Shown here: piece after piece, positions 3,424-43,977 of the stretch
How the letters are laid out: every line of letters starts with the position of its first letter
Numbering within the stretch: position 1 is the stretch's first letter
Origin: a virus
Lineage: Duplodnaviria > Caudoviricetes
IMG/VR virus record: IMGVR_UViG_3300013936_000023
Span: 1-64,000 of that record
Strand: one strand, 5' to 3'
DNA: 64,000 bases
Program-made: the position numbers and the translations under genes
Notes under the pieces: model-generated
Databases searched by the model: none
What the model saw: the letters and a program-made list of their open reading frames with translations, nothing else
What the model was told of the DNA's origin: nothing

Positions 3424-6400
3424 TTAAGTTGTCGCATAACTTCTTTGCATCGCCATCTGCTTGAGGCCGTCAACAAACTGCTGGGCATTGCGCACGCTCG
3501 GCAGAGAAACATTGGCCACATTGAGGATGGTATTGCCAGCGCCAGATTTGCTTGCAAACCAACGCGGGTCAGAGCCAATCTTCATCAGGTTGCGCGTAAT
3601 GTCAGCAGGGATGATCCCGTCGCCTTGATTCAATACGCGCAACTCGGGGCCTTGTTCGCCAACCATGGCCAAGCCGCCACGAGCAGATAGCGTACCGCTG
3701 GCATAACCCATATCCGACAATTTCTTCCGCAGTTCCTCATTGCGCTCATGGAGACGCTTACGCTCTTCCTCATCGGCGTCGAACCATGCTTGAGAATTTC
3801 GCGCAATCTCATCCTCCATTCCCATGATTTTGGACTGGTCAGAATGACTAACGCTGCCGCTACTACTCGACGTGTTGTTGCGTCGAGACGAACTGGAAGA
3901 ACTGGAACTTGTCGAACCGGAATATCCAGATGTGTAGCCGTACTTGTTCTTCAGGCGATTCCACATATCTGCTGTGGATTCTCCCTGAATGCCAAGTGCT
4001 TGCATCTTAGCATTGCGCTGACCAATGACGCCCTTAATCCAGTCGTAGCCATAGCCTTTCTTGATTCCCTCTTCAAGAAGTTCACCATAGTCCGTATCTT
4101 TGTCCCAAAGCGGATTGTAAGCGTTGACAATGTCAGCCCAAGCCTCAGCGTCACTTGCATAGCCTTCGCCACTACCAGCCCATTCACCGGGTTGAACGCC
4201 AGAACCAGAACCATAGCCACCAGAACCACCGCCAAGACCAGCCAAGATGCTATTGTACTGGCTCGCAAAACTTTGGAGATTCGCCAAACGCGTCTGCCAG
4301 TTTGCGTTCTCTTGTTCAATGCCAAACATTTGGTCGGCGAGGAGCTTGTTCTGCTGATACTCATACTCGCTGGTCAGATTGCTCCAACCCTCTTTGTATT
4401 CCTCCCAGCGTGCCTTCTCCTCTTCAAGCGCCGCCGTTTCGTTCTTGCGCAGAGTCTCGATATATTCCTTCTCGGCCTTGAGCGAATCCTCAATGTACTT
4501 CTTGCGGTTCTCGTAATCCTTTTGGCGATAGTACGCATTCAGCTCATTTTGGGATTTACTTACAGCATCAGCATCGGCTTGATATACAAACTGGCCATCT
4601 TTGAATACCATCTGCATGGTATTCTTAGCCTTGTCCAGCGCATTGAGCTTTTCCTGTAAGGTAATCTGGTCTTCAACGGCGTCATTCTGAGCTTCCAGAG
4701 CATCAAGTTGCGCCTGAGCGCGGTCTTCCGCATCCTGAAGCATTTGGTCATACTTGTCGTTGATGGCGTCAATTTGGTCTTGCAGTTCCTCGATTTTACG
4801 AGAGGCATATTCGACGTAATAGTCAATGACGCCTTGCATCATCTGCTTCTGCTCGTTTAGAGCATCAGAGACGGAATCAGATACATTGTCAACCGAATCT
4901 TTGGCGGTTTTCTCAACCTCTTTGACAGCGTCCTTGGCTTCTTCCTTATTTTTCTGAGTTTGCTTAGAAGAGCTTGGCGATGTATATGTCGGGACACTTG
5001 TCCCGCCAGTTGGTGTGGTGGTAGAAGCAGACGGCTGATAGAACGACGTCAAGCTACCCCACAAGTTCTTCATATATGCCTGACTTGCTTGACGCATAGC
5101 CTCTTGACTGGTTAATTTCTTGCCAGCGTAATGTGCCTGTTGCATCAAGCCAGTAGCAGATGCTCGAATTTGATTCTGGGCGCTGGTGTCACTCATACCC
5201 ATGACAGCGGCGATAGCAGACGCGCTATATCCTGCCTGAGTCGCCAACTGCTGTAATGCGGCAATCTGCTGGCTGAAATTGAGTTGCTGATTATTGGTTG
5301 CAATCATTTGGGCCGCGAGATTATACATCTCGTTCTTGGCCGTGGTGGTTGTACTTGCTTGTTCAAGAAGTTTGTTGACGTAATTGCTGATATACGTCTG
5401 CGCCTCATTGTACGCAACTTGTGTGCTCTGGAACGTGTTGTACAGCAATTGTTGTTCATTGGTGCAACTTGCGACGCCGCCCTCGACATTCTCCATAGCA
5501 GACGTTAACCGCCCAGCCTCAGCCGTCAACTTATTGTACTCAACAACTTGCTCGCTGGTCAAGGATTTGTTTTGGCTTAGAATAGTCTGATATTTCTGGA
5601 GCTTTAACGTCAGTTGCTCATAATACTTTGCGCCCTCGATAAGCTCAGTAACAGGAACGGTCGTTTCCTTCCCGCCAATACGCTTAGTCGTATAGGTCGT
5701 TTCAGTAGTATAAGCGTTGTCAAGAATAGCTTGAGCCTTTTCGGTCTTGAGCTGCTGGTACTTGTCAATCTGATTCTGAAGCTCGGCGTTTTCCTTTTCA
5801 AGAGCGTCCTTCTCGGCAAGAATCTCCGGCGTCTTGTCATTCCAAGCTATACCGTTGATTTCTTCGAGACGAGCCCTATTCGTTTCAAGTTGCTGAGTAT
5901 CAGATTCAATAGACTCATTGAGTTCGTCAATGTTCTTACGACTGTCTTCGGTTGCCTTCCAGAAATAGCCACCAACAGCAAGAGCCGCAGCTACAGCAAG
6001 AATAACTGGAAGGATACCAGTAAGGACACCACCACCGGCGCTCAACGCCGCAAATAATCCAGACGCACCTTCTTTAGCAAGACTTGCCGCTGCTGCAAAA
6101 TTCTTGAATTGGCTAATAACGGAAGGGATAATCTTGGACGCCTGAAGCAATCCGGTTGCGCCCCAGCCAACACCAGTCAGTAACGTAATCTGCGTGACAA
6201 TGCGACCAAGGTCGGTATTGGCAAGCTGTAAGAATCCATTGGCTAAGTCCAACACAGCTCCAACCAATTTGTCGTCAATGACGTTATTGGCAAGGTCTTG
6301 GAATGTTGCCTTAAGGTTATTCGTCTTAGCCTCAAGCGATTCCATGTATGCCGCATTTTCGTTGATAGCTGAGCCATTGGCATCAAGCGCAAGAGTCAAG

Positions 6401-6673
6401 GCTTTCTCAACGCCCTCAAAGTTCGTGAGAGCTGCGGCGAGATTTGCAGATTGGTTAGCACCTGCTTGCTGATTCAGGTAGTAATCCTTCTCATTGGTCG
6501 TAAGCTCAGGCCAAATTTCTGCAACATCATGCAAGATATCGTAGAGCTTTCTGAGCTGACCCTCTTGGTCATAGATAGCAATATTGTGCTCTTCATACCA
6601 TGCCGTCAGAGCTTTGCCAGTAGAGGAGGATTCGTCGACGATTTGATTCAGACGAGATTGGATGGAAACAAGT
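3424..6673 (-). CDS. Tape measure protein, exon 3
   Basis: The frame of ORF 3424..6534 stays open upstream to 6673 (LVSIQSRLNQIVDESSSTGKALTAWYEEHNIAIYDQEGQLRKLYDILHDVAEIW), a typical TMP core. Long Ala/Leu/Gln-rich helical protein; predicted spliced product 1333 aa. Confidence 0.85.
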
Positions 6674-8229
6674 CATAGTTGTTTACTCAAGGTCGCTACC
6701 CTTGAGTGGAAAGGATGAACCCATCAATCTCATCTTTGTAATCTTCAGAATTTTCAATCTTCCAGAACGGTATTCTCAATAATGGAATGCCATGTGCTTT
6801 ACAATATCCCGTCTTCGCATCGTCATAAGCCACACGTTTTGCCAGATGTTCTTTGGCTTCAATCTTAGTCATGCCGCCCCATGGAATAGCTTTATAATGA
6901 CCGACGCCATCAACTTCTATACAAGCATTCAACTCAGGCAAATAAAAATCAAATGGTAAACAGCGACCAGTATAGCCAACGCAATCCGCAAACACTTTCT
7001 CTTTGATATATTCAACGCCAGACGCCACAAGATACAGCTCAACCAGTTTGGCGATATTCGATTGCTTCATACGGCATTCATTACACTTGAACTTTTTGTT
7101 GTGAATGAAATGCACTAAACTCGTCGTATATTCATTTCCGCAAGAACACCTGAATTTCATCATGGCTTTATCGCCAAGAAATCTTTGGTCTTCAACGACG
7201 CAGTCGCCGCCATTCAACTCAGCAAATCTTCGCATATTGTAGATAGTATATGGATTGTGGACATAGAATCGCTTAAAGCTACTACCGCGAGTCACAGCCG
7301 CCATAGACACGATGCCTCGATAACCTTCAGCGTCTTCGACCCCAACAGATGAATGGTATCGAATGCCGCTGTCACTCAAAATGTGTAACCCAACCTTAGC
7401 CATCATCTCTTCGTATATAACTCTATCATTCGGCTTTCGATGGGGATTATCCTGAGTTGAAGCCTTATAACAAGACGGACAAACCTTATTCTCGTCATGC
7501 TTAAAATCGAGAAATCTCTTCCAATAAGCCTTACCACAACACCCACACACAAACAACAGTTTGCTGTCTGAGTTAATATAATCTCCTTGACTTGACGCCA
7601 GCTTTGTTCCATTAGCCACAAATTTATCAACATAGTGTTGAATATTATACCAAGCCATAGGATTTTTAGAACTAAAGATATGTGGTGCAATCGCATCGTA
7701 TTTCGCTTTGTTCATCACGACTCGCAAAGACCTCATATGTCTATAACCGTCAGCGTCTTCGCATAGCATTTTTTCATCGACACTTCGATAGTCTTCGTCA
7801 AGCAAATTTAACCCAGCTTGCTCGAACATCTCTTTTACTTGTTCATAACTATATCTTTTCATAATTTCCTTTCCCTCACGCTTTCACGTGATGTTCAGAT
7901 TATTTCTTTATCTTCGATTAAGAAGATTCCACCATTTCAATTTAAGGGAATTTCACCCACCACCAAGCATTGTGGCCTTACTCCTGTTGCGGTTACGCCG
8001 CCAATGGGATAATCGTTTGACGCACCTCTATTCGAGGCTTTGCACCCAAGCATCCATTACTTTCAACACTTAGGCTTTTGGCCATATGCCATCTCTATCG
8101 TTTTTAATAGTTTCCCACATTCACGCTCGCCAGTCTTTCAAGGCCACGTTGTAGTGATAGAGCTTTAGGAGTTGCTGGGTTTAGATGGATACAAACAGAG
8201 CATATCACTATACTCTTAGGGACTTGTTT
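6674..8229 (-). mobile_element. Group I intron 2 in tape measure gene (1556 nt, endonuclease ORF in P9 region)
   Basis: P7 pairing GATTA/TAATC and terminal omega-G (AACTATG). The first 11 nt, AAACAAGTCCC, are the exact reverse complement of the ligated junction GGG|ACTTGTTT. Removal restores the frame (ARG-LVSIQ). P9 GNRA hairpin TCACG-TGAAAG-CGTGA. Confidence 0.85.
6696..7862 (-). CDS. Intron-encoded endonuclease, Vsr-like/EDxHD PD-(D/E)XK type with Zn-ribbon repeats
   Basis: C-terminal LPFDFYLPELNACIEVDGVGHY...YDDAK...IPLLRIPFW and repeated CxCG/CxxC modules. Confidence 0.75.
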   Translation of the reverse strand: MKRYSYEQVKEMFEQAGLNLLDEDYRSVDEKMLCEDADGYRHMRSLRVVMNKAKYDAIAPHIFSSKNPMAWYNIQHYVDKFVANGTKLASSQGDYINSDSKLLFVCGCCGKAYWKRFLDFKHDENKVCPSCYKASTQDNPHRKPNDRVIYEEMMAKVGLHILSDSGIRYHSSVGVEDAEGYRGIVSMAAVTRGSSFKRFYVHNPYTIYNMRRFAELNGGDCVVEDQRFLGDKAMMKFRCSCGNEYTTSLVHFIHNKKFKCNECRMKQSNIAKLVELYLVASGVEYIKEKVFADCVGYTGRCLPFDFYLPELNACIEVDGVGHYKAIPWGGMTKIEAKEHLAKRVAYDDAKTGYCKAHGIPLLRIPFWKIENSEDYKDEIDGFILSTQG

Positions 8230-8597
8230 CCCCGTGCCGCCTTAGTGCCAGAACGGGTAATTTCAACGATGCCCGTCATTAACGCCAAGGACTCTTCATA
8301 CGTGTTGTTACCAGTAGCCAACGCCGCAGACGCTTTACCAATATTTGTTGCGAGGTCAGCAGACGATACGGCCATGTTGTTCGAGACGTTGTTGACCGCA
8401 TCAATGATATGCTCGCTATCATCTGCGGTCAAATTGAACGCCTTCATCTGGCTGATGATAAAGTTGGATGCTTCACCAGCCGAAATTTGCTCATCAGCGA
8501 TATTCTGATAGAGCGAGGCCACCTTAGCAAGTTGAGCCGAATCAGCTTCACTGTAACCCGACTTCTTAAACTCGGTGGCCGCTTCAACCATTTCTGA
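8230..8597 (-). CDS. Tape measure protein, exon 2
   Basis: SEMVEAATEFKKSGYSEADSAQLAKVASLYQNIAD...IIDAVNNVSNNMAVSSADLATNIGKA, the conserved TMP domain. Confidence 0.85.
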
Positions 8598-8616
8598 CGT
8601 GGTTGTTTAGTCTTGA

Positions 8617-8949
8617 TTATTTTTTCTCTGGGTCATAGACACCATAGTCATTGTCGTATTTGTCTTGCGCTTTGACTTCGTTAATCATCTTTTGCCGCTC
8701 GTCGGGGTCATCCATGCGTTGCTGAGAGCCAATCATCAAGGCGTTGAGAATAGTCCCGACGAACGTCCAGATGCCAATGGCAACACAAAGATGGTCAGTA
8801 GTCGCGCCAAGATACATGCACAGCGTGAACCAGATGATGTTAAAGATAAAAACACCACCGGCTTTGCCATGTCCGCGCATACAAGCCCCAGCAATACCCT
8901 TGCAGATGCAATAGATGATGCCGACCCACATTCCAATTACTAATACCAT
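8617..8949 (-). CDS. Small membrane protein (about 3 TM helices plus charged tail) inside intron 1
   Basis: 110 aa with three hydrophobic segments and an acidic/charged C-terminus. GGAGG RBS and its own promoter. Confidence 0.8.
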   Translation of the reverse strand: MVLVIGMWVGIIYCICKGIAGACMRGHGKAGGVFIFNIIWFTLCMYLGATTDHLCVAIGIWTFVGTILNALMIGSQQRMDDPDERQKMINEVKAQDKYDNDYGVYDPEKK

Positions 8950-8980
8950 AATTTAACCTCCAATATTTTTTGATGGTTAA

Positions 8981-9009
8981 AATATAACATAGAAGAAAAT
9001 ATTTGTCAA
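8981..9009 (-). promoter_or_regulatory. SigmaA-type promoter inside intron 1
   Basis: TTGACA-17 bp-TATATT with extended -10 TG. Confidence 0.75.
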
Positions 9010-9344
9010 GACTAAATTTCCGAGGGTTTTCAATCCTCGCCTGAGTACTTCTTCGGCCTATAAATTTGGAGGCTCGCCCTGTATACTCGATTGACACACC
9101 GCTCATCACGGCTTCGCGCCCAAGCTGCCCTTTTGTCACGGATAGTATATAATATTCGTGACATAGCGATTGGGTCTTTCAACCATACGCCATCCTTGCC
9201 GTTTTATCGGTTTCCCACATTCACGCTCAAGCTTATCTCATCCTCACGTTGTAGTGGCAAGGCTCTTCAGGCTTTCAAGGGTTTAGGGGCTGTTCTCAGT
9301 GCTGGTTTACCATCCCATCACTCCGGCTCAGACCGATTTGGTTT

Positions 9345-9728
9345 GCCGGTACGCGCTACGGTTTTGCCCATCTCAGATAGGTTCTGGACATAGCTCTCCA
9401 GTCCGCTTCCGCGCAAATCCGAAACTTTCTTAAATTCCGTCATCGCGCCATTCAACGTGTATACTTGCTCAACCATGCTGGAAATTGCGTCAACAGAACG
9501 ACGGAATACCTCGTTCATCGCATTGAATGTCGCCTCAACATCGCCAGCATCTTTATTGACTTGCTGTGTTGCACCAGACATATCATTTAACTCAGCCGTG
9601 ACCGAGCGAATGCCCTTGCCGTCAACCTTGAACGTGACCCTCTTGGCGGCATTGTTGAGTTGCGACTGAATATTGTTTAAGTCAAGTACAACTTTCGCAA
9701 GAATACTATAATCATTGTTAGAAGCCAT
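9345..9728 (-). CDS. Tape measure protein, exon 1
   Basis: 128 codons (MASNNDYSILAKVVLD...MTEFKKVSDLRGSGLESYVQNLSEMGKTVARTG), a TMP N-terminus. Confidence 0.85.
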
Positions 9729-26627: not shown

Positions 26628-29237
26628 TTATATTGCAATGGCTTCAACGATTTCGCCGTGCGAAGTTTTTGGCTTTGGAGATTCCCACCTATCCTTTGCT
26701 CTTTGTCTCTCAGCAACATCATAACACGCTGCGCCGCAATACTTTTGCAGTTCATCTCGCGGCTTAAATCGCTTGCCGCAGATTGGGCAAATCTTCCCAG
26801 CGCCCACAAGATTCCTCTCGAGGTTGCGCACGATATCCCAACCAAAGCAAGCCCACAACATTTTCTTATTGCTGGACTTCTTGACCGTGTAAGCATAAGC
26901 CACAAGGCTATTCACAACATACGCCAAATCTTCGCCGCTCGCCGCCAAGATTTCTTCACGGACTCGCCGCGAGATATAATCATCGCCATCCTTGATGTTG
27001 TCCAGCTCTTCGTTGAATTTTGCTCGATTCCGCAACCAGTAGTTATAAGCCTTTATGACTTCAGAATCTTCGCGGATTGTATAGTCGACATCTTTGTTGA
27101 TAAGCATCCGCCAATCAAATTTACCGATGTTTTTGTTGTATTTTACTCTGGCGTCTGGTATGCTGTTAGATATGCGGTCCATCGTCGAGCCATTGGGTTG
27201 CTCAACTTGCCAAGATTCTTTATCTTTAGCATAAATAAAGAACTGCGGGACGCTCGACTTAGTATATCGCTTGATGATCTTGTCAATGCTCTTAGGGCGC
27301 TCAGGTAGCCATAAAGTCTTGGCGTAGTCAATCACGGCGTTGTTCTCAAAACAGAGCCATTTGACCACATCAAGTTGCTCTTGGCCAATCTTACCGCTAT
27401 TCCAAATCTTCGTGATGTTATTGGATATCGGCCCGATATTGCCGCCAGTGTAAGCATGAATCATTCCTTGATACATCGACTCCGGCGTAAGCACAGCGGG
27501 CTGGGCCTTCTTGAGGTCGTAGGCCAGCGGTCGAATGTCTGTCATGTTGCGTTTGGCAATCTTGGTGAGCGTGCGGTCTTTGACTACGAGGCTCTTGTCT
27601 CCATCACAATCAAACATGAGGTAACGGCTGATAAGGTCGTGAGTAGACGTGTAGATGCACTTGGTCTCGCCAAACCACTTGTCAAGCTCAGTTGTGCGCG
27701 TGTTGGTCTTGACCGCCCATTCCCTATACAAGTGCGGCGAGCGGAGACACGCCAACTCATCACCGTCGCGGTATTGGTTGGTATACACCTCCCCATCCGC
27801 AAGCAGACCCCGTGGATTTTGTTCACCCTTGAATAGCCACTCGCAAAAGGCATAAAGGTCAGGAGACAGAAACAAGTACTTGCCATTCACGCGCAACCGA
27901 CCGCCACGCGCTTGTTTGACAAGGCTCTGCTTAGCTTGCTTCAGAATCTCGCGGCTGTAAACATCCTTAAACAGCTCAGGGTAAATCTCAAGTGCCGCTT
28001 GCACAGCCGACTTATAGCGGTTGTACGGCGTAGCTCCAAGTAGCCGCATAGTAGTTTGGTAATCCGCGCCGATAGTCTCAATCTCGTCAACCGTGCGCTT
28101 GGTCAACCGCTCAATCTCGCCATCCGTCATATCGCTGAGAGTCTGAAGCATCTGGTAGTTGATACGGCTCTTAGGGATATACGCCTCCTCGATATTGCAG
28201 AAGCTCGCCTCGCAACCATATGCCTTGAATCGCGCTTTATAGCATTCCCAACTCGCGTAGTATTTCCAGAGCTTGAATTGGCTCTTGGTGAAGATATAGC
28301 GAATATCCTCAAGCACAACATTGTGCCGCTGACCGTAGATATCTGTGACCCACCATTGGTCAGGCGTACATTTTTCGCGCAGGAATTTGTCGAACGGAAA
28401 GTAGACCATCAAACCCTTGACCCACGGCAAACGAACCATGCGCGTCGGCTTGTCAAGCATGATACCGCAGCCATCCATGTGGGGGATAGGCGTATCTGTC
28501 AACTCGCGCTTGATTTCATACGTCATGCCGTCAATGTGGTCAACCTCACCAGCCACCAGTGTCTCAAAATCGTCAACCACAATGCTCTTGTCGATATCGA
28601 AATCTTCCCAAACGTCCGTAGCAGAGTTCATCAGCGCCAGATATGCCAAGAACTTGTTGCAATTCATGCCGCCTTGCCGATTGATATCCTCGATGGTCAA
28701 TCCACACATCAGGCGTTGCTCTACGCGGAGAAATGCGGACTCGCGGATGAACACGGCCCTCTTGGTGCGGATTTGGCCAGCAGAAGCAGTGAGGAAAATG
28801 TAGTGCTCGCCATCCCAATCAAATCCTTGCTTAACAAGATTCTCAAAGACCTGAAAGAAAAATACGTTGACGATAATCAAATCCTTGGTAAGCTGGAACG
28901 TCTTGAGGTTCAAAGCTCGCGTCAAGCTCGACTCAAACAGGTTGATGACGTTGCGGTCTTTGAGCGCCTCGGCATTGAGCTGTCGCGTGACACCTTCAGC
29001 CGCCCGCTTGTCAAGAATCGCGCTCAGGCGTTCTTTATGCTTAGCAAGACAGCGGTTGTACGCCGATACGCGCCATTGACCATCCCAAGCATTGGTTTTA
29101 CCATCCTTGAGCCGCGTCTTTAATTTTGCTCGCGCCGAGTACATCTTGGCCATACGCCGATGAATCGCTTGCTCATCTGGCTGGTAGAATGTACTGGTAT
29201 CGCACGAATAGAGATATACTTGATTCGTCAAACTCAT
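26628..29237 (-). CDS. YonO-like single-subunit (RdRP-related) DNA-dependent RNA polymerase
   Basis: 869 aa with DGCG, LRSPH and FDCDGD (DxDGD catalytic) motifs; SPbeta-like context. Confidence 0.85.
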   Translation of the reverse strand: MSLTNQVYLYSCDTSTFYQPDEQAIHRRMAKMYSARAKLKTRLKDGKTNAWDGQWRVSAYNRCLAKHKERLSAILDKRAAEGVTRQLNAEALKDRNVINLFESSLTRALNLKTFQLTKDLIIVNVFFFQVFENLVKQGFDWDGEHYIFLTASAGQIRTKRAVFIRESAFLRVEQRLMCGLTIEDINRQGGMNCNKFLAYLALMNSATDVWEDFDIDKSIVVDDFETLVAGEVDHIDGMTYEIKRELTDTPIPHMDGCGIMLDKPTRMVRLPWVKGLMVYFPFDKFLREKCTPDQWWVTDIYGQRHNVVLEDIRYIFTKSQFKLWKYYASWECYKARFKAYGCEASFCNIEEAYIPKSRINYQMLQTLSDMTDGEIERLTKRTVDEIETIGADYQTTMRLLGATPYNRYKSAVQAALEIYPELFKDVYSREILKQAKQSLVKQARGGRLRVNGKYLFLSPDLYAFCEWLFKGEQNPRGLLADGEVYTNQYRDGDELACLRSPHLYREWAVKTNTRTTELDKWFGETKCIYTSTHDLISRYLMFDCDGDKSLVVKDRTLTKIAKRNMTDIRPLAYDLKKAQPAVLTPESMYQGMIHAYTGGNIGPISNNITKIWNSGKIGQEQLDVVKWLCFENNAVIDYAKTLWLPERPKSIDKIIKRYTKSSVPQFFIYAKDKESWQVEQPNGSTMDRISNSIPDARVKYNKNIGKFDWRMLINKDVDYTIREDSEVIKAYNYWLRNRAKFNEELDNIKDGDDYISRRVREEILAASGEDLAYVVNSLVAYAYTVKKSSNKKMLWACFGWDIVRNLERNLVGAGKICPICGKRFKPRDELQKYCGAACYDVAERQRAKDRWESPKPKTSHGEIVEAIAI

Positions 29238-29817: not shown

Positions 29818-30588
29818 ATGAATGAAAATGAACGCATTTGGAAACTGTATCGGTACACATGCAAGCATAATGGCCTTATCTATATCGGCATAACCAGCAA
29901 AACACTTGATGAGCGCTGGATGAATGGACATGGATATAAGAGCAATCCGAGGCTTAACAATGCTATTCAGAAATATGGAGTAGATGGATTTATTCGGGAG
30001 ATATTACTTGACAACTTGACTCAGCAAGAAGCGTTCGAAAAAGAAATTGAATATATTGCAGAATTTAATGCCACAGACAAAAATGTGGGATACAACATAT
30101 CGATGGGCGGAACAGCGCCAATGGCAGGGAGACATCATTCAGAAGAAACCAAAAGGATGTTCTCTCAAACAAGACTTGGAGAAAACAATAGTTTTTTCGG
30201 AAAACATCATTCCGACAGAACCAAAGAAATTTTAAGCGAAGCCAACAAAGGCAAGAAGCATACGGAGGAATGGAAGAAAGAGCAATCTAAGCATTCTAAA
30301 ATTTGGCACCAGACACATGACAACCCAATGCTTGGAAACCATAGATTTGCCGGTGAGAACAATCCTATGTATGGCAAGCGTGGCGGGGATTCTCCTTTTG
30401 CCGTTAAAGTTGCAAAGTTCTCTCTGGACGGTAAGTTGCTTGAAGTGTTTAATTCGACAACAGAGGCGGCGCAGTCTATTGGAGTTTACAATGGAGCTCA
30501 TATTACAGAGTGCTGTAAGGGAAGACGTAAAAAGTGTGGTGGTTATATATGGAGATATTTTGTGAACGAACAGGAGGAAGAAGAATGA
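29818..30588 (+). CDS. GIY-YIG homing endonuclease with NUMOD3/NUMOD1 domains
   Basis: KLYRYT...IYIGIT...ERW; GRHHSEETK and GKHHSDRTK repeats; FNSTTEAA. Confidence 0.85.
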   Translation: MNENERIWKLYRYTCKHNGLIYIGITSKTLDERWMNGHGYKSNPRLNNAIQKYGVDGFIREILLDNLTQQEAFEKEIEYIAEFNATDKNVGYNISMGGTAPMAGRHHSEETKRMFSQTRLGENNSFFGKHHSDRTKEILSEANKGKKHTEEWKKEQSKHSKIWHQTHDNPMLGNHRFAGENNPMYGKRGGDSPFAVKVAKFSLDGKLLEVFNSTTEAAQSIGVYNGAHITECCKGRRKKCGGYIWRYFVNEQEEEE

Positions 30589-40558: not shown

Positions 40559-40633
40559 CGGGGAGTAAGCCAATGATAGACGGCAGCATTTGGGATGCTG
40601 AGGTTGCAGGTTTGAGTCCTGCCTCTCCGACCA
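40559..40633 (+). tRNA. tRNA-Pro(TGG)
   Basis: Acceptor CGGGGAG/CTCTCCG, anticodon stem CAGCA/TGCTG with loop TTTGGGA, T-arm GCAGG-TTTGAGT-CCTGC, encoded CCA. D-arm is weak. Confidence 0.8.
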
Positions 40634-41110: not shown

Positions 41111-41791
41111 ATGAGTAAGCGTTGTGATAATGCTATCGGTAAAAGGGTTGGCATATATGATGTTTTATATAAATGCGACCATAGGGACAAAGACGGTCAT
41201 GAGTTATGTCATGTAAAATGCTCTGTGTGCGGGTGGGAGTCTAATATGAGGCTTTCTCAAATATCGAAAGCTAAGACTTGTACACACATATGTCTTGGAG
41301 GTAAGTTTGTACCAAAGTATTCTTGGAAGTCTCAAAGGCTTAGAAGAATATTTTCTAACATTAAAAGTAGATGCTATGACCCAAGCAACAAATCTTACCG
41401 TTGGTATGGCGGCAAAGGAATTGTCGTATGTGATGAATGGCTGTCAAATCCAGCTTCGTTTGAGGACTGGGCGTTACAAAATGGATATAGTGATGATTTA
41501 ACAATAGACAGGATTGATGAATCTCTTGGCTATTGTCCAGATAATTGTAGATGGATAACAGTCAAAGCTAATTCCAAATATAAATCTACGACAAGAGTTA
41601 TCTACGTAAACGGCGTTGGTCATACGGGAAGAGATTGGGCAAAGATTTTATGTCTTGGCACAAACGTCATCAACAAAATGATGAGAGAATACGACGAGGA
41701 TATTGTCGCAAGATTTATAAGAGCGAGAATGTACAATCCATCCTTAAAAACAAGAAATAAATCTTGGTTAAAGGTTTATGGTTTAATCTAA
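41111..41791 (+). CDS. HNH-type homing endonuclease
   Basis: IKSRCY...YGGKGIVVCDEW...LTIDRID...YCPDNCRW. Confidence 0.8.
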   Translation: MSKRCDNAIGKRVGIYDVLYKCDHRDKDGHELCHVKCSVCGWESNMRLSQISKAKTCTHICLGGKFVPKYSWKSQRLRRIFSNIKSRCYDPSNKSYRWYGGKGIVVCDEWLSNPASFEDWALQNGYSDDLTIDRIDESLGYCPDNCRWITVKANSKYKSTTRVIYVNGVGHTGRDWAKILCLGTNVINKMMREYDEDIVARFIRARMYNPSLKTRNKSWLKVYGLI

Positions 41792-41968
41792 ACAACGTTC
41801 TAAAAGCCAGTTTTGTTTTAGTGGATTTCTAAAAAGATTCTCAAATAACAAGAAAGATGCCGCAGCCACTGCGAAGTGTGGCAAGCAATCAAAGCTCGCC
41901 TCTCCATATACCGAGCTTGTATTAACGGTGTAGGTAGTTCACCGTTATAGTTCTGAGGGAGGCAATTT

Positions 41969-42045
41969 GCTATCATAGCTCAACTGGATAGAGCAGCGTT
42001 CTTATAAAGCGCAGGCCGGTTGTTCGAGTCAACCTGATAGCACCA
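41969..42045 (+). tRNA. tRNA with anticodon TAT (Ile-UAU) on an Arg-like body
   Basis: Full cloverleaf: GCTATCA/TGATAGC, GCTC-AACTGGATA-GAGC, GCGTT-CTTATAA-AGCGC, GGTTG-TTCGAGT-CAACC, ACCA. Confidence 0.85.
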
Positions 42046-42046
42046 C

Positions 42047-42145
42047 AGGCCAGTAAGCGGGCCTTCATAGTAAACCTCCTATAAAGTCGATGCGGTTAAG
42101 CAGCTCTGTGGTTCGGGGAAAACCATGGAGCTGTTGCCGCATTTT
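42047..42145 (+). ncRNA. Small RNA candidate with anti-SD/anti-AUG linker and terminator-like hairpin
   Basis: AGGCC/GGCCT hairpin, CAT-N5-ACCTCCT, then a long hairpin ATGCGG...CCGCAT followed by TTT. Confidence 0.5.
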
Positions 42146-42160
42146 CCTTGAAATTTATGC

Positions 42161-42189
42161 TTGACAAATAGCTCGACATATGCTATCAT
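42161..42189 (+). promoter_or_regulatory. SigmaA promoter of recombinase gene
   Basis: TTGACA-17-TATCAT with extended -10 TG. Confidence 0.7.
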
Positions 42190-42219
42190 AGCATCAGAAA
42201 ACAAAAGGAGGAATAAACA

Positions 42220-43050
42220 ATGAATAAGGCTTATGTTGATTATCTGGTTGGCGAGCAGAAGAGTAGCAACACCATCAAGGCGTATGTCAAGGATGTTGAG
42301 CAGATGCTTGACTATATTGGCAAGCTGGAGGAGAACATCAGCTATGCCGACCTCCTAAACTGGAAGGCGAGCATCAGCAGTATGGCGTCTGCAAGCGTCA
42401 ATCGCAAAATCGTGGCGGTCAGCGGGTACTTCAAGTTCCTGCATGATGTAGATGCCATCAGCACCAATCCTGCGGCGAACCTAAAGAGCGTCAAGGTCCA
42501 CAACAAGGAAAAGCTGGCTATGAGCCGCGAGGACATTTGCAAGATGCTCAACGCTTGCAAGAGCAACCGGCAGAAGGCCATGCTGTATACGCTTGGCGCG
42601 ACTGGTATGCGTGTGAGCGAGCTGACGGGGCTTGGCTATAAGCAGTACCGTGATCGTGTTGATAACCAGCTCGTTATCACAGGTAAGGGTGACAAGCAGC
42701 GCGTGGTTTATTTGAATCATCAGGCGGTCGAGGCTATCAACCTCTACATCCGTACTGAACGCAAGGCTGGCAGCGAGTTTCTGTTTGCCAGCTCTCAAGG
42801 CGGCAAAGTCGATGCTAACAATTTCGACAAAACGCTCAAGGCTTTGGCTCGTAAGGCTGGCGTCAAGAACGCGGATGCTGTTAGCGCTCATACGTTCCGC
42901 CATAGCTTTGCCACGATTCTTTTGAATGAGGGTCAGCCGATTGATGTTGTGTCGAAATTGCTTGGGCACAATAACATTCAGACCACGCTCATTTATGCAA
43001 AGCGCAATGCGCAGACGTTAAGAGCTGCGGGTGTGTCTGTATCGTTTTAG
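42220..43050 (+). CDS. Tyrosine recombinase (XerC/D-like integrase)
   Basis: GMRVSEL, GKGDK, HTFRH, LGH and TTLIY catalytic residues. Confidence 0.9.
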   Translation: MNKAYVDYLVGEQKSSNTIKAYVKDVEQMLDYIGKLEENISYADLLNWKASISSMASASVNRKIVAVSGYFKFLHDVDAISTNPAANLKSVKVHNKEKLAMSREDICKMLNACKSNRQKAMLYTLGATGMRVSELTGLGYKQYRDRVDNQLVITGKGDKQRVVYLNHQAVEAINLYIRTERKAGSEFLFASSQGGKVDANNFDKTLKALARKAGVKNADAVSAHTFRHSFATILLNEGQPIDVVSKLLGHNNIQTTLIYAKRNAQTLRAAGVSVSF

Positions 43051-43059
43051 GAGGACATA

Positions 43060-43977
43060 ATGAATTATAATTTTACCGATATGACCGGATGGAAAATGAA
43101 CGAGCACGGCGTTCCTGATAGTAGATGGACAGTTAAACGTTTCGTTGGCCTTAATAAGAGTGGCAAGGCTATGTGGGAATGCGAATGTTCTTGTGATAAG
43201 CACACTATCAAAACAGTTGAAGGAACGCTTTTGAGAGGTGGTCAAAGCAAGAGTTGTGGATGCTACCGTTTGGTTAGACGGCGTAAGAACCATGGATTCG
43301 TCGATATGACGGGTTGGGTTATGAAAGAACATGGTGTGCCAGAGAGTCGCCTTACCGCGTTGAGCTTGGCTGAACCATACATTGGCAATGACGGCCACAA
43401 GAGACAACAGTGGTTATGCCATTGTGAATGCGGCAACGAAATTATTGCGCTTGGATTTCATATTAGAAAGGGCGTTACGAAATCGTGTGGATGCTACCAC
43501 TCTGATGTTAGTGCTGAGCTTGGCCGTAGGACGGGCAAACTTAGAGTGACGCATGGCGAAAGTAATACGCGTTTGTATAAAGAGTGGCGCGGCATGAAGG
43601 TGCGGTGCAACAATCCAACAGACCAACATTGGCCAGATTACGGTGGCAGGGGCATTAGGCTATGCGATGAATGGAATGAATCGTATGAAGCGTTTGCCGA
43701 GTGGGCAAAAGCAAATGGATATGATGATAGTTTGACGATTGACCGCATTGATGTGAACGGTAACTATGAACCGTCGAACTGTCGATGGGTGACGCAGAAA
43801 GAGCAAAGTAATAATAAGAGAACCAACGTGTATTTGACGTATAAAGGTGAGACAAAAACGGCGGCGCAGTGGGCCGAAGAAATTGGCATGAATCCCATAA
43901 CGTTGCGTAGGAGAATCCAAAAAGGCTGGAGCGTTGAGGACGCTATCGAGAAGCCATTGAGAAGAAAATCGTTTTGA
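43060..43977 (+). CDS. HNH-type homing endonuclease with tandem CxC..SCGC domains
   Basis: Two WECEC/SCGC modules; MKVRCNNP...YGGRGI...TIDRIDVNGNYEPSNCRW. Confidence 0.8.
   Translation: MNYNFTDMTGWKMNEHGVPDSRWTVKRFVGLNKSGKAMWECECSCDKHTIKTVEGTLLRGGQSKSCGCYRLVRRRKNHGFVDMTGWVMKEHGVPESRLTALSLAEPYIGNDGHKRQQWLCHCECGNEIIALGFHIRKGVTKSCGCYHSDVSAELGRRTGKLRVTHGESNTRLYKEWRGMKVRCNNPTDQHWPDYGGRGIRLCDEWNESYEAFAEWAKANGYDDSLTIDRIDVNGNYEPSNCRWVTQKEQSNNKRTNVYLTYKGETKTAAQWAEEIGMNPITLRRRIQKGWSVEDAIEKPLRRKSF

What the first reader, a model, noticed from the sequence alone, without database searches (positions are those of the whole stretch)
8598..9344. Group I intron used as a carrier for a promoter-driven membrane-protein 'moron'
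Seen in sequence: in the P9 region, where introns normally carry a nuclease, intron 1 holds a 110-aa three-TM protein with its own TTGACA-17-TATATT promoter and GGAGG RBS. The cargo is looped out by an exact 11-bp stem (TTTAGTCTTGA at 9016-9006 with TCAAGACTAAA at 8616-8606) that overlaps the -35 box. The gene can therefore be expressed early or in a lysogen by host RNAP, independently of the late TMP transcript, while staying invisible to TMP after splicing. Established: small membrane morons such as HK97 gp15 block superinfection through the incoming TMP. Inference: an exclusion or immunity gene linked inside the TMP allele it must be compatible with.
Basis: partly seen in the sequence, partly recalled or inferred. 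Interest (0 to 1): 0.85.

Follow-up and report, generated by a model that had tools for sequence, protein, structure and literature searches.

The report
Tail-gene intron carrying a membrane-protein gene
A self-splicing-type (group I) intron inside a gut phage's tail tape-measure gene carries, instead of the usual DNA-cutting enzyme, its own bacterial-type promoter and a small membrane-protein gene. About 85 related introns from pig and human gut phages do the same, so the intron acts as a carrier for an accessory gene whose job is still unknown.

Summary
Window 9344..8598 (minus strand) interrupts a tape-measure (TMP) gene exactly where Enterocloster phage TMPs are continuous.

- **Intron identity.** Rfam gives no hit for this copy. 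Comparative analysis of 37-85 relatives shows a group I architecture: exon/guide P1 and P10, an omega-G, and a covarying P3/P7 pseudoknot with P2, P4-P6, P8 and P9. In all, 98% of cells pair and 30 of 65 pairs carry compensatory changes.
- **Cassette.** After P9 comes an 11-bp stem (11-18 bp in relatives, different sequence in each clade). It loops out TTGACA-17-TGn-TATATT, GGAGG and a 110-aa three-TM ORF. 84 of 85 unique introns keep such a promoter, and none carries a nuclease.
- **Cargo.** It is under purifying selection (dN/dS about 0.07-0.13). All cargo classes share a cytoplasmic C-terminal motif, Q-[DE]-K-Y-D-N-x-[WY]-G. Every context checked lies in a TMP gene, including a different, Rfam-positive group I intron at another TMP site.
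- **Not supported.** Cargo alleles do not co-vary with TMP alleles; they swap independently. One contig of a binned metagenome genome aside, no copy was found in bacterial genomes, so expression in a lysogen has no support.
- **Untested.** Superinfection exclusion remains a hypothesis (about 30%).

This scan noted the same kind of intron earlier on another genome (e1-3753236). I found no published description.

The parts
9345..9728 (-). TMP exon 1 (128 codons, ends ...KTVARTG). The last 5 nt, CCGGC (9349-9345), form the exon strand of P1.
   Evidence: tblastn with the uninterrupted PMBT24 TMP; P1 covariation
8598..9344 (-). Group I intron 1 (747 nt), ending in omega-G at 8598
9323..9332 (-). 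Internal guide: UCUGA (9332-9328) pairs with 3' exon UCAGA to form P10; GCCGG (9327-9323) pairs with the end of exon 1 to form P1
   Evidence: Four covarying exon/guide combinations in 82 unique introns; for coordinates
9298..9322 (-). P2 hairpin (AGUGAUGG / CCAGCACU) with conserved loop GAUGGUAAA
   Evidence: 5 of 8 pairs with double changes
9128..9290 (-). P3 5' strand (9290-9287) followed by the P4-P6 domain. This holds CCCUU/AAGGG, CCUUGCC/GGCAAGG, two GNRA hairpins, and a 28-nt hairpin at 9162-9135 seen in only part of the family.
   Evidence: The module 9256-9214 is 85-95% identical to modules in the ICP1 TMP intron and the SP-15 capsid-gene intron.
9043..9088 (-). Catalytic core: P7 5' GAGUA (9088-9084), J7/3 UACA, P3' GGGC (9079-9076), P8 hairpin (9073-9056), J8/7 CGAAGAAG, P7 3' UACUC (9047-9043)
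   Evidence: P3, P7 and P8 each show compensatory changes. In L045 and L138, P7 reads CAGACUA / AAAUAGUC, the canonical R/S consensus.
9021..9039 (-). P9 hairpin CGAGG-AUUGAAAAC-CCUCG
   Evidence: 5 of 5 pairs with double changes
9006..9016 (-). 5' arm of the cargo-bracketing stem (UUUAGUCUUGA); overlaps the -35 box
8981..9009 (-). Promoter: -35 TTGACA (9009-9004), 17-nt spacer ending in TGT (8989-8987), -10 TATATT (8986-8981). Predicted start near 8974.
8953..8980 (-). Leader hairpin UUAACC (8980-8975) / GGUUAA (8958-8953), overlapping SD GGAGG (8961-8957). The 5' arm lies between the -10 box and the predicted start, so the hairpin is expected only on read-through RNA.
   Evidence: Same position with different sequence across clades (CUAACC/GGUUAG, AUAGAUACUU/AGGUAUCUAU, ACACUC/GAGUGU). 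Inferred, not shown.
8617..8949 (-). Cargo ORF, 110 aa: three TM helices, predicted N-out/C-in, with a charged C-terminal helix ending ...KAQDKYDNDYGVYDPEKK
8606..8616 (-). 3' arm of the bracketing stem (UCAAGACUAAA), starting directly after the stop codon
8230..8597 (-). TMP exon 2 (starts SEMVEAATEFKK...; PhageMin_Tail domain). The first 5 nt, UCAGA, form P10.

Best explanation
The 747-nt insert is a group I intron in the tape-measure gene of an SPbeta-like gut siphophage of about 75 kb, probably infecting Clostridia.

**Splicing.** The guide sequence pairs with both exon ends (P1 and P10). Splicing would restore ...VARTG|SEMVEA..., as seen in uninterrupted relatives.

**Cassette.** After P9 the intron holds a cassette looped out by an 11-bp stem, which brings the 3' splice site back to the core. 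The cassette is an independent expression unit: a host sigma-A-type promoter (TTGACA-17-TGnTATATT), an SD and a small membrane-protein gene. The promoter's -35 box and spacer DNA double as the RNA stem's 5' arm.

**Inferred expression.** Host RNA polymerase transcribes the cargo from this promoter, independently of the late TMP message. The late genes are probably transcribed by the phage's YonO-like polymerase. On the long late RNA, a leader hairpin partly covers the SD. That hairpin cannot form on the promoter-derived mRNA. The logic matches the T4 I-TevI intron ORF, with the timing reversed.

**Inferred product.** The protein anchors in the membrane with a variable TM domain. It displays a conserved acidic/aromatic C-terminal peptide (Q-D-K-Y-D-N-x-W/Y-G) in the cytoplasm.

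**Inferred role.** The cargo is a fast-swapping accessory (moron-like) gene acting at the membrane in phage-phage or phage-host conflict. Superinfection exclusion at DNA entry is the single most likely role.

**Sub-probabilities.** Group I intron 0.9. Own promoter functional 0.8. Real membrane protein 0.9. Exclusion function about 0.3.
For: **Precise insertion.**
- PMBT24 and CB473P TMPs are continuous across the site.

**Group I structure.**
- On 37 cores, 98% of cells pair and 30 of 65 pairs carry double changes. Slid controls give 2-6.
- The P1 exon/guide pairing covaries in four forms. Omega-G is present in 82 of 82. P10 is UCUGA/UCAGA.
- L045 and L138 carry the canonical R/S sequences.
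- A 37-nt module is 94.6% identical to the ICP1 TMP intron. That intron's splicing was shown by RNA-seq and RT-PCR (PMC10448857).
- Intron 2 of the same gene shares this module and gives a weak RF00028 hit.

**Cassette.**
- The promoter is kept in 84 of 85 introns while the spacer sequence varies.
- The stem is 11-18 bp, with a different sequence in each clade.
- A leader hairpin starts at +1 after the -10 box in most clades.

**Cargo is real.**
- dN/dS is 0.07-0.13.
- The motif is conserved with synonymous codon variation.
- There are 0 K/R before the first TM versus 3.05 per protein after the last TM, in 74 proteins.

**TMP-specific association.**
- All five distant family members checked (L138, L139, L140, L141, L142/L143) lie in the same setting. 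L138, L140 and L142/L143 are clearly inside split TMP genes; L139 and L141 are contigs too short to tell.
- L140 is a different intron at a different TMP site. It scores RF00028 58.3 bits, above the 50-bit cut-off, and has the same stem/promoter/cargo layout.

**Hypervariable cassette.**
- Cargo is 53% identical between phages whose first 120 aa of exon 2 are 100% identical.

**Late polymerase.**
- The phage encodes an 869-aa protein matching Pfam RdRP, as YonO does (PMC5467207).
Against: - No RNA evidence for splicing or for a start site near 8974. The RNA-library contigs showed no exon-exon joint, which is uninformative either way.
- Rfam RF00028 finds nothing in this intron at E<=10.
- The window clade has C-G rather than the near-universal U-G wobble at the 5' splice site (8 of 82).
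- No intrinsic terminator follows the cargo, so it is not a textbook moron unit.
- TTGACA could also pair with an invariant UGUCAA in J6/7. Part of its conservation could therefore be RNA-structural. L140 has the box without that partner.
- For function there is no homology to any exclusion, holin, toxin or defence family.
- There is no co-variation with TMP sequence.
Confidence: 0.6

Rival explanations
1. The cargo is an early host-takeover or anti-defence membrane effector, for example a division or transport inhibitor. Its conserved cytoplasmic C-terminal peptide would bind a conserved host protein. It would have no specific relation to TMP or to superinfection; TMP introns are simply where the cassette arose and spread.
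For: - Host-type promoter.
- The conserved part is the cytoplasmic tail, while the TM anchor is freely exchanged between 1, 2 and 3 TM forms.
- No co-variation with TMP.
- Known Gram-positive exclusion proteins (Ltp, Sie2009) act on the outer face of the membrane (own knowledge).
Against: - Every context checked is a TMP gene, including a second, unrelated intron at another TMP site. That is hard to explain by descent alone.
- No homology to any known takeover protein.
Confidence: 0.25
2. The cargo is a holin, antiholin or other lysis-timing protein.
For: - Size (60-134 aa), 1-3 TM helices, predicted N-out/C-in topology and a highly charged C-terminal tail all resemble class I-III holins (own knowledge of holin classes).
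- No Amidase_2, Amidase_3 or GH25 endolysin, and hence no mapped lysis cassette, was found in the record.
Against: - No match to any Pfam or PHROG holin family.
- No adjacent endolysin.
- A strong constitutive host-type promoter, with predicted masking of the SD on late RNA, is the opposite of late holin expression.
- Some introns carry two or three such genes.
- The tails are often net acidic.
Confidence: 0.1
3. The cargo is a selfish stabiliser of the nuclease-less intron, for example a small membrane toxin of the type I toxin-antitoxin kind. Alternatively it is a nearly neutral passenger with no benefit to the phage.
For: - The intron has no homing endonuclease yet is present in all alleles found.
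- SPbeta-type prophages carry small TM type I toxins such as BsrG and YonT (own knowledge).
- The shape, a TM segment plus a charged tail, is similar.
Against: - No conserved antisense promoter or RNA: 7 of 85 introns have any antisense promoter-like site, and none is conserved.
- Strong purifying selection plus a conserved protein motif argue against a neutral passenger.
Confidence: 0.07
4. It is not an intron. The TMP is made as separate polypeptides, and the 340-nt segment plus the ORF are ordinary intergenic DNA and a gene.
For: - No splicing data.
- No Rfam hit.
- Gene callers annotate a 129-aa ORF, the cargo and a 1209-aa ORF separately.
Against: - The insertion falls inside the PhageMin_Tail domain, at a point where relatives are continuous.
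- Exon 2 has no SD.
- Extensive covariation fits a group I fold with guide pairing to both exons.
Confidence: 0.03

Closest known systems
[quoted passage not shown]
   Same: A group I intron in an essential phage gene, with the ORF looped out of the ribozyme. The ORF has its own promoter inside the intron, embedded in a transcription unit of another temporal class. An RNA hairpin that forms only on read-through transcripts masks the RBS.
   Different: The cargo here is a small membrane protein, not a GIY-YIG or HNH nuclease, so it gives no homing function. The promoter is host sigma-A type (early or constitutive) inside a late gene, whereas T4 has middle or late promoters inside early genes. 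The ORF lies after P9, bracketed by a stem that overlaps the promoter.
TMP-gene group I introns with HNH nucleases, such as Vibrio phage ICP1 (spliced in vivo, PMC10448857) and intron 2 of this same gene (8229..6674)
   Same: The same host gene (TMP). A shared 37-43-nt P4-P6 module. The intron sits at a boundary of recombination between phages.
   Different: Those introns carry a homing endonuclease and vary in presence or absence. This intron has no nuclease, was present in every allele found, and carries a promoter-driven membrane-protein cassette.
Morons, such as HK97 gp15 (PMC3594210)
   Same: A small accessory gene with its own host-type promoter, set inside the late structural region. 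It encodes a membrane protein and turns over rapidly. HK97 gp15 is an exclusion protein.
   Different: The cassette is inserted inside an intron within a coding gene, not between genes. It has no terminator. No lysogen expression or prophage state is shown. There is no sequence similarity to gp15.
Non-nuclease proteins in group I introns, such as rps3 in the fungal mitochondrial LSU rRNA intron (own knowledge)
   Same: A group I intron serves as the home of a gene that is not an endonuclease.
   Different: That gene is a housekeeping ribosomal protein in an organelle. It has no promoter of its own and is not a hypervariable membrane-protein cassette.

Membership tests
Group I intron | P1: the 5' exon end pairs with an internal guide, with a U-G wobble at the splice site | tested here: met
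   The exon/guide pairing covaries (ACCGGU/GCCGGU, ACUGGU/GCCAGU, AGCGGU/GCCGCC, ACGGGU/GCCCGU). U is at -1 in 74 of 82 introns. Deviation: the window clade (8 of 82) has C-G instead of U-G.
Group I intron | Terminal omega-G and P10 pairing of the 3' exon with the guide | tested here: met
   G is the last intron base in 82 of 82. The 3' exon UCAGA or UCGGA pairs with UCUGA immediately 5' of the P1 guide strand.
Group I intron | Core fold: P3/P7 pseudoknot enclosing P4-P6, then P8 and P9 | tested here: met
   98% of cells pair. Compensatory changes occur in P2, P3, P4, P5a, P6, P7, P8 and P9. Slid controls give 31-44% paired. The P4-P6 region has an extra closing helix and an extra hairpin before P7, and no subgroup was assigned.
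Group I intron | Match to the curated covariance model Rfam RF00028 | tested here: not met
   No hit at E<=10 for the window intron or L045. Intron 2 scores 23.8 bits. The L140 cargo-bearing intron scores 58.3 bits, above the 50-bit cut-off. RF00028 is known to miss many phage introns (own knowledge).
Group I intron | GTP-dependent self-splicing | not testable with these tools
   RNA-library contigs gave no exon-exon joint and are uninformative.
Homing-endonuclease-bearing mobile intron | Intron ORF encodes a LAGLIDADG, GIY-YIG, HNH, His-Cys or PD-(D/E)xK nuclease | tested here: not met
   No Pfam or PHROG match. The cargo is a 3-TM protein. None of 85 unique introns carries a nuclease.
Moron | Autonomous unit of promoter, gene and terminator, inserted between genes of a late operon and expressed from the prophage | tested here: inconclusive
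   Promoter and gene: met. Terminator: not found. Location: inside an intron, not between genes. Prophage expression: one real copy in 185,579 species genomes, on a MAG contig whose flanks were not examined.
Superinfection exclusion proteins (HK97 gp15, T4 Imm, Sie2009, Ltp, P22 SieA) | Sequence or profile similarity to a known family | tested here: not met
   No hits in Pfam, PHROGs or PADLOC. The Atlas nearest clusters are unnamed.
Superinfection exclusion proteins | Blocks DNA entry of incoming phage, with escape mutations mapping to TMP | not testable with these tools
   Needs plating and DNA-entry assays.
Holins | Match to a holin family and a position beside an endolysin | tested here: not met
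   No holin family hit. The neighbours are TMP exons.

The most novel reading that the evidence does not exclude
Group I introns of tape-measure genes in gut phages are dedicated vehicles for a hypervariable family of early-expressed membrane proteins. These proteins gate DNA entry, either by acting on the incoming tape-measure channel or on a host factor it needs, through the conserved QDKYDNxWG tail. The intron supplies a silent docking site, a promoter and a translational switch. The cassette moves between different TMP introns by recombination. Together this would be a mobile 'injection-immunity' locus tied to the gene it targets.
Probability: 0.25. Interest if true: 0.9.

Novelty: new variant of a known kind. 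Interest (0 to 1): 0.78.

Why it matters
Group I intron ORFs in phages are taken to be homing endonucleases that serve the intron itself. Here a widespread intron family has exchanged the nuclease for a promoter-driven accessory gene. I found 85 unique copies in pig and human gut viromes, plus a second intron type at another TMP site.

This has three consequences.

- **Intron persistence.** It offers one explanation of how nuclease-less introns can persist: by paying their way with useful cargo.
- **A new place for accessory genes.** Phages can hide host-transcribed genes inside tightly packed late operons.
- **A testable protein family.** The cargo forms an unannotated family of about 54 clusters at 50% identity, found only inside TMP genes, with a sharply conserved cytoplasmic peptide.

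For annotation, such TMPs are currently called as two or three separate genes plus a 'hypothetical protein'.

Tried and rejected
- **Rfam.** Scans of the window at gathering threshold, of a 4-kb stretch and of a 411-nt stretch gave no group I hit for intron 1. L045 also gave none.
- **Named phages.** megablast and tblastn against named phages found nothing for the region or for the cargo.
- **RNA evidence.** Four RNA-library runs were laid as contigs. No exon-exon joint was seen. The joint 8605->9003 ('skips 397, between not known') first looked like a cargo-less allele. The contig length (114 + about 261 + 28 = 403) fits a relative with a different, shorter cargo instead. High depth over 9230-9337 reflects many relatives sharing the conserved core and is not a measure of expression.
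- **Cargo-less junction.** Pattern search in metagenome contigs: 0 hits.
- **Intron-less junction.** Pattern search (CGNACCGGYTCRGANATGGT) in viral contigs: 0 hits. The pattern is exact, so this is weak evidence.
- **Alternative 5' splice site.** A site after CGU, with a U at -1, was rejected. That codon varies (CGT, AGA, CGC), and the matching 3' end would lack omega-G.
- **'AAAUUUAGUC' as J8/7-P7'.** Rejected, because the segment is absent from most clades.
- **Structure.** The AF2 model of the cargo has pLDDT 66.7, so no fold search was run.
- **Complex prediction.** A job pairing the cargo with the hydrophobic TMP segment was sent 7 times, and the machine was unreachable each time. There is no result.
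- **Chance 19-mer hits.** Environmental 'Ga...' and Acidobacteriota matches are chance or repeat matches.
- **Endolysin families.** Amidase_2, Amidase_3 and GH25 were not found in the record. The lysis cassette remains unmapped.
Full report
**What is in the sequence.** On the minus strand the tape-measure (TMP) gene is in three pieces:
- exon 1, 9728..9345;
- exon 2, 8597..8230;
- exon 3, 6673..3424.

The pieces are separated by insert 1 (9344..8598, the finding) and insert 2 (8229..6674, with a 388-aa HNH nuclease).

- stem arms at 9016-9006 and 8616-8606, exact 11-bp complements;
- -35 TTGACA at 9009-9004;
- a 17-nt spacer ending in TGT;
- -10 TATATT at 8986-8981;
- GGAGG at 8961-8957;
- a 110-aa ORF at 8949..8617.

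Hydropathy and an AlphaFold model (pLDDT 66.7) both give three TM helices plus a C-terminal helix.

**It is an insertion into an otherwise continuous gene.** Enterocloster phages PMBT24 and CB473P1-3 have one uninterrupted TMP directly after a RuvC-like gene, the same synteny as here. tblastn puts window exon 1 (...KTVART) and exon 2 (...SEMVEAATEFKK) next to each other, at PMBT24 ...LTVART-AD-EMVEAATEFKK. The break falls inside the PhageMin_Tail domain.

**It is a group I intron, although Rfam misses it.** RF00028 gives no hit at E<=10. I therefore collected relatives:
- 12 cargo homologues, all in the same position;
- 44 viral contigs and about 70 real metagenome contigs sharing conserved intron words.

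Together these give 82-85 unique introns of 590-1078 nt.

*Exon-guide pairing.*
- The last exon bases pair with an internal guide, and the two sides covary in four combinations.
- The base before the splice site is U in 74 introns and C in 8. The 8 are the window clade.
- The intron ends in G in 82 of 82.
- The first five exon-2 bases (UCAGA or UCGGA) pair with UCUGA directly 5' of the P1 guide. This is the canonical P1/P10 arrangement.

*Core fold.*
- I wrote out a structure with P1, P2, P3, a P4-P6 domain, P7 (pseudoknotted with P3), P8 and P9, and counted it on a 37-sequence alignment.
- 98.0% of cells pair, and 30 of 65 pairs have changes on both sides.
- With the 3' partners slid by 1-3 columns, only 31-44% pair and 2-6 pairs have double changes.

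*Links to known group I introns.*
- In L045 and L138, P7 and J8/7 read CAGACUA...GAAGAAAUAGUC, the classical R and S elements.
- A 37-43-nt module (9256-9214) is 85-95% identical to modules in the Bacillus phage SP-15 capsid-gene intron and in the Vibrio phage ICP1 TMP intron.
- Splicing of the ICP1 intron was shown by RNA-seq and RT-PCR (PMC10448857).
- Intron 2 of this same gene shares the module and scores 23.8 bits on RF00028.

No subgroup was assigned. The P4-P6 region has an extra closing helix and an extra hairpin before P7.

**The cassette.** After P9 every family member has the same layout.

- **Stem.** An 11-18 bp stem joins the promoter region to the last 5-16 nt of the intron, in 38 of 40 unique viral-contig introns. 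Its sequence is clade-specific:
  - UUUAGUCUUGA / UCAAGACUAAA in the window clade;
  - ACAAAUUAUUCAAUA / UAUUGAAUAAUUUGU in L011;
  - AAAUUAUCUAAU / AUUAGAUAAUUU in L016;
  - CUUGACAAAAUUU / AAAUUUUGUCAAG in L002, which offsets the T-to-G mismatch in the window-type arm.
- **Promoter.** 84 of 85 introns keep TTGACw-N14-TGn-TAnnnT while the spacer varies. In the window it is the best sigma-70-like site on the coding strand of the structural arm.
- **Position of the -35 box.** The box sits in different RNA contexts in different clades: the stem arm here, the P9 3' strand in most others. That argues for selection on the DNA signal. One caveat: an invariant UGUCAA in J6/7 could pair with it.
- **Leader hairpin.** In about two thirds of distinct leaders, the 6-10 nt right after the -10 box pair with the 3' half of the SD and its spacer. 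Examples are UUAACC/GGUUAA here, CUAACC/GGUUAG, AUAGAUACUU/AGGUAUCUAU and ACACUC/GAGUGU. Transcription should start about 7 nt after the -10 box. The hairpin can therefore form on read-through late RNA but not on promoter-derived mRNA. [quoted passage not shown] It is inferred, not shown.
- **Downstream.** No terminator follows the ORF.
- **Late polymerase.** The phage encodes an 869-aa protein matching Pfam RdRP, as SPbeta YonO does (PMC5467207). Host-RNAP and late transcription are therefore plausibly separate.

**The cargo is a real protein family found only in TMP genes.**
- *Selection.* Among close alleles dN/dS is 0.07-0.13.
- *Diversity.* Across the family the cargo is diverse: 1, 2 or 3 TM segments, 60-134 aa, sometimes two or three ORFs in a row.
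- *Shared tail.* All classes end in a charged tail carrying [KE]-x-[QE]-[DE]-[KR]-Y-D-N-x-[WY]-G. The motif's codons vary synonymously, so the constraint is on the protein.
- *Topology.* No K/R precedes the first TM in 74 proteins, against 3.05 per protein after the last TM. That predicts a cytoplasmic tail.
- *Family size.* A profile search of 1.84 billion representatives finds 54 clusters. All but two are short; the two long outliers are repeat proteins. One cargo class alone has more than 217 clusters at 90% identity in gut metagenomes.
- *Context.* All five distant members checked lie in the same setting. L138, L140 and L142/L143 are clearly inside split TMP genes. L139 and L141 are contigs too short to tell.
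- *A second intron type.* L140 is a different intron at a different TMP site (...YMESIEA|...). It passes RF00028 at 58.3 bits against a 50-bit cut-off. It still has stem arm + TTGACA-17-TGT-TATAAT + SD + a TM protein with QEKYDNEWG.
- *No known family.* Pfam, PHROGs, PADLOC and the Atlas all give nothing.

**What the comparisons say about function.** The cassette turns over independently of its surroundings.

| Pair | Exon 2, first 120 aa | Exon 1, last 100 aa | Cargo |
|---|---|---|---|
| Window vs L007 | 100% identical, dS 0.34 | dN 0.37 | 53% identical, dS saturated |
| L006 vs L007 | dN 0.004 | dN 0.013 | dN 0.44 |
| Window vs L013 | 47% identical | dN 0.066 | 90% identical |

- Whole-TMP comparison shows a mosaic with no match to cargo similarity.
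- The pattern looks like a hypervariable accessory cassette flanked by conserved recombination handles.
- The 19-mer scan of 185,579 species genomes gave one real hit, on a 20.8-kb contig of a binned Bacteroidales genome. Its flanks were not examined. The record has a Xer-like tyrosine recombinase. Lysogenic expression is therefore unsupported, and early lytic expression is the more likely setting.
- No conserved antisense promoter exists, which argues against a type I toxin-antitoxin pair.
- Holin-like shape is noted, but the promoter logic and the lack of any holin or endolysin link argue against that reading.

I rank the possible functions as follows:
- superinfection exclusion or another block at DNA entry, about 0.3;
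- another early membrane effector, about 0.25;
- lysis timing, about 0.1;
- selfish or neutral, about 0.07.

Exclusion ranks first for three reasons. The association with TMP is exclusive. Allele turnover looks like an arms race. TMP is an established target of membrane exclusion proteins (HK97 gp15, PMC3594210; Ltp, own knowledge).

**Novelty.** Introns in TMP genes are known (PMC10448857; PMC4299906). So are intron ORFs with their own promoters and RBS-masking hairpins (PMC2988022). I found no paper describing a group I intron that carries a promoter-driven membrane-protein gene in place of a nuclease. This scan noted the same kind of intron earlier on another genome (e1-3753236). My analysis was made independently and agrees with it.

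Noticed in passing
window 8229..6674 (minus strand): Intron 2 of the TMP gene carries a 388-aa HNH/homing nuclease ORF (7862..6696). It shares the CACUACAACGUG...GUGGGAAAC module and the P10-then-P1 guide layout with intron 1 and scores 23.8 bits on RF00028. The exon base before it is G, so it also lacks a U-G wobble. It is present in L007 but absent from L002 and L006.
   Followed up: partly
window 9345 (minus strand): The window clade (8 of 82 introns) has C-G instead of the U-G wobble at the 5' splice site, from a synonymous GGC rather than GGT codon. Whether splicing efficiency is affected is unknown.
   Followed up: partly
L140:2700-3416: A different group I intron (RF00028 58.3 bits) at a third TMP site carries the same stem/promoter/TM-protein cassette. 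This implies that the cassette transfers between introns.
   Followed up: partly
L015, L023, L032, L035, L036, L049, L054, L142: Some family members carry two or three small TM ORFs in tandem inside the intron (introns up to 1078 nt).
   Followed up: partly
window 8605-8585 (minus strand): The hairpin CAACCA...UGGUUG spans the 3' splice site (6 bp). Shorter AACC...GGUU versions occur in other clades.
   Followed up: no
window 26628-29237 (minus strand): An 869-aa protein matches Pfam RdRP (39.4 bits against a 23.8-bit cut-off). It is a YonO-like single-chain RNA polymerase and probably the late transcriptase.
   Followed up: partly
window 41111-43977 (plus strand): A Xer-like tyrosine recombinase (42220-43050; SAM-like N domain plus catalytic domain) is flanked by two HNH nuclease genes (41111-41791 and 43060-43977). 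A GIY-YIG/HNH nuclease lies at 29818-30588. The genome is rich in homing nucleases. Two tRNA genes lie at 40559-40630 and 41969-42042.
   Followed up: partly
window 9728..8230 versus L002, L006, L007, L013, L027: The window TMP is a recombinant. Exon 1 and the cargo resemble L013 and L027, while exon 2 resembles L006 and L007. The breakpoint lies at the 3' end of the intron.
   Followed up: yes
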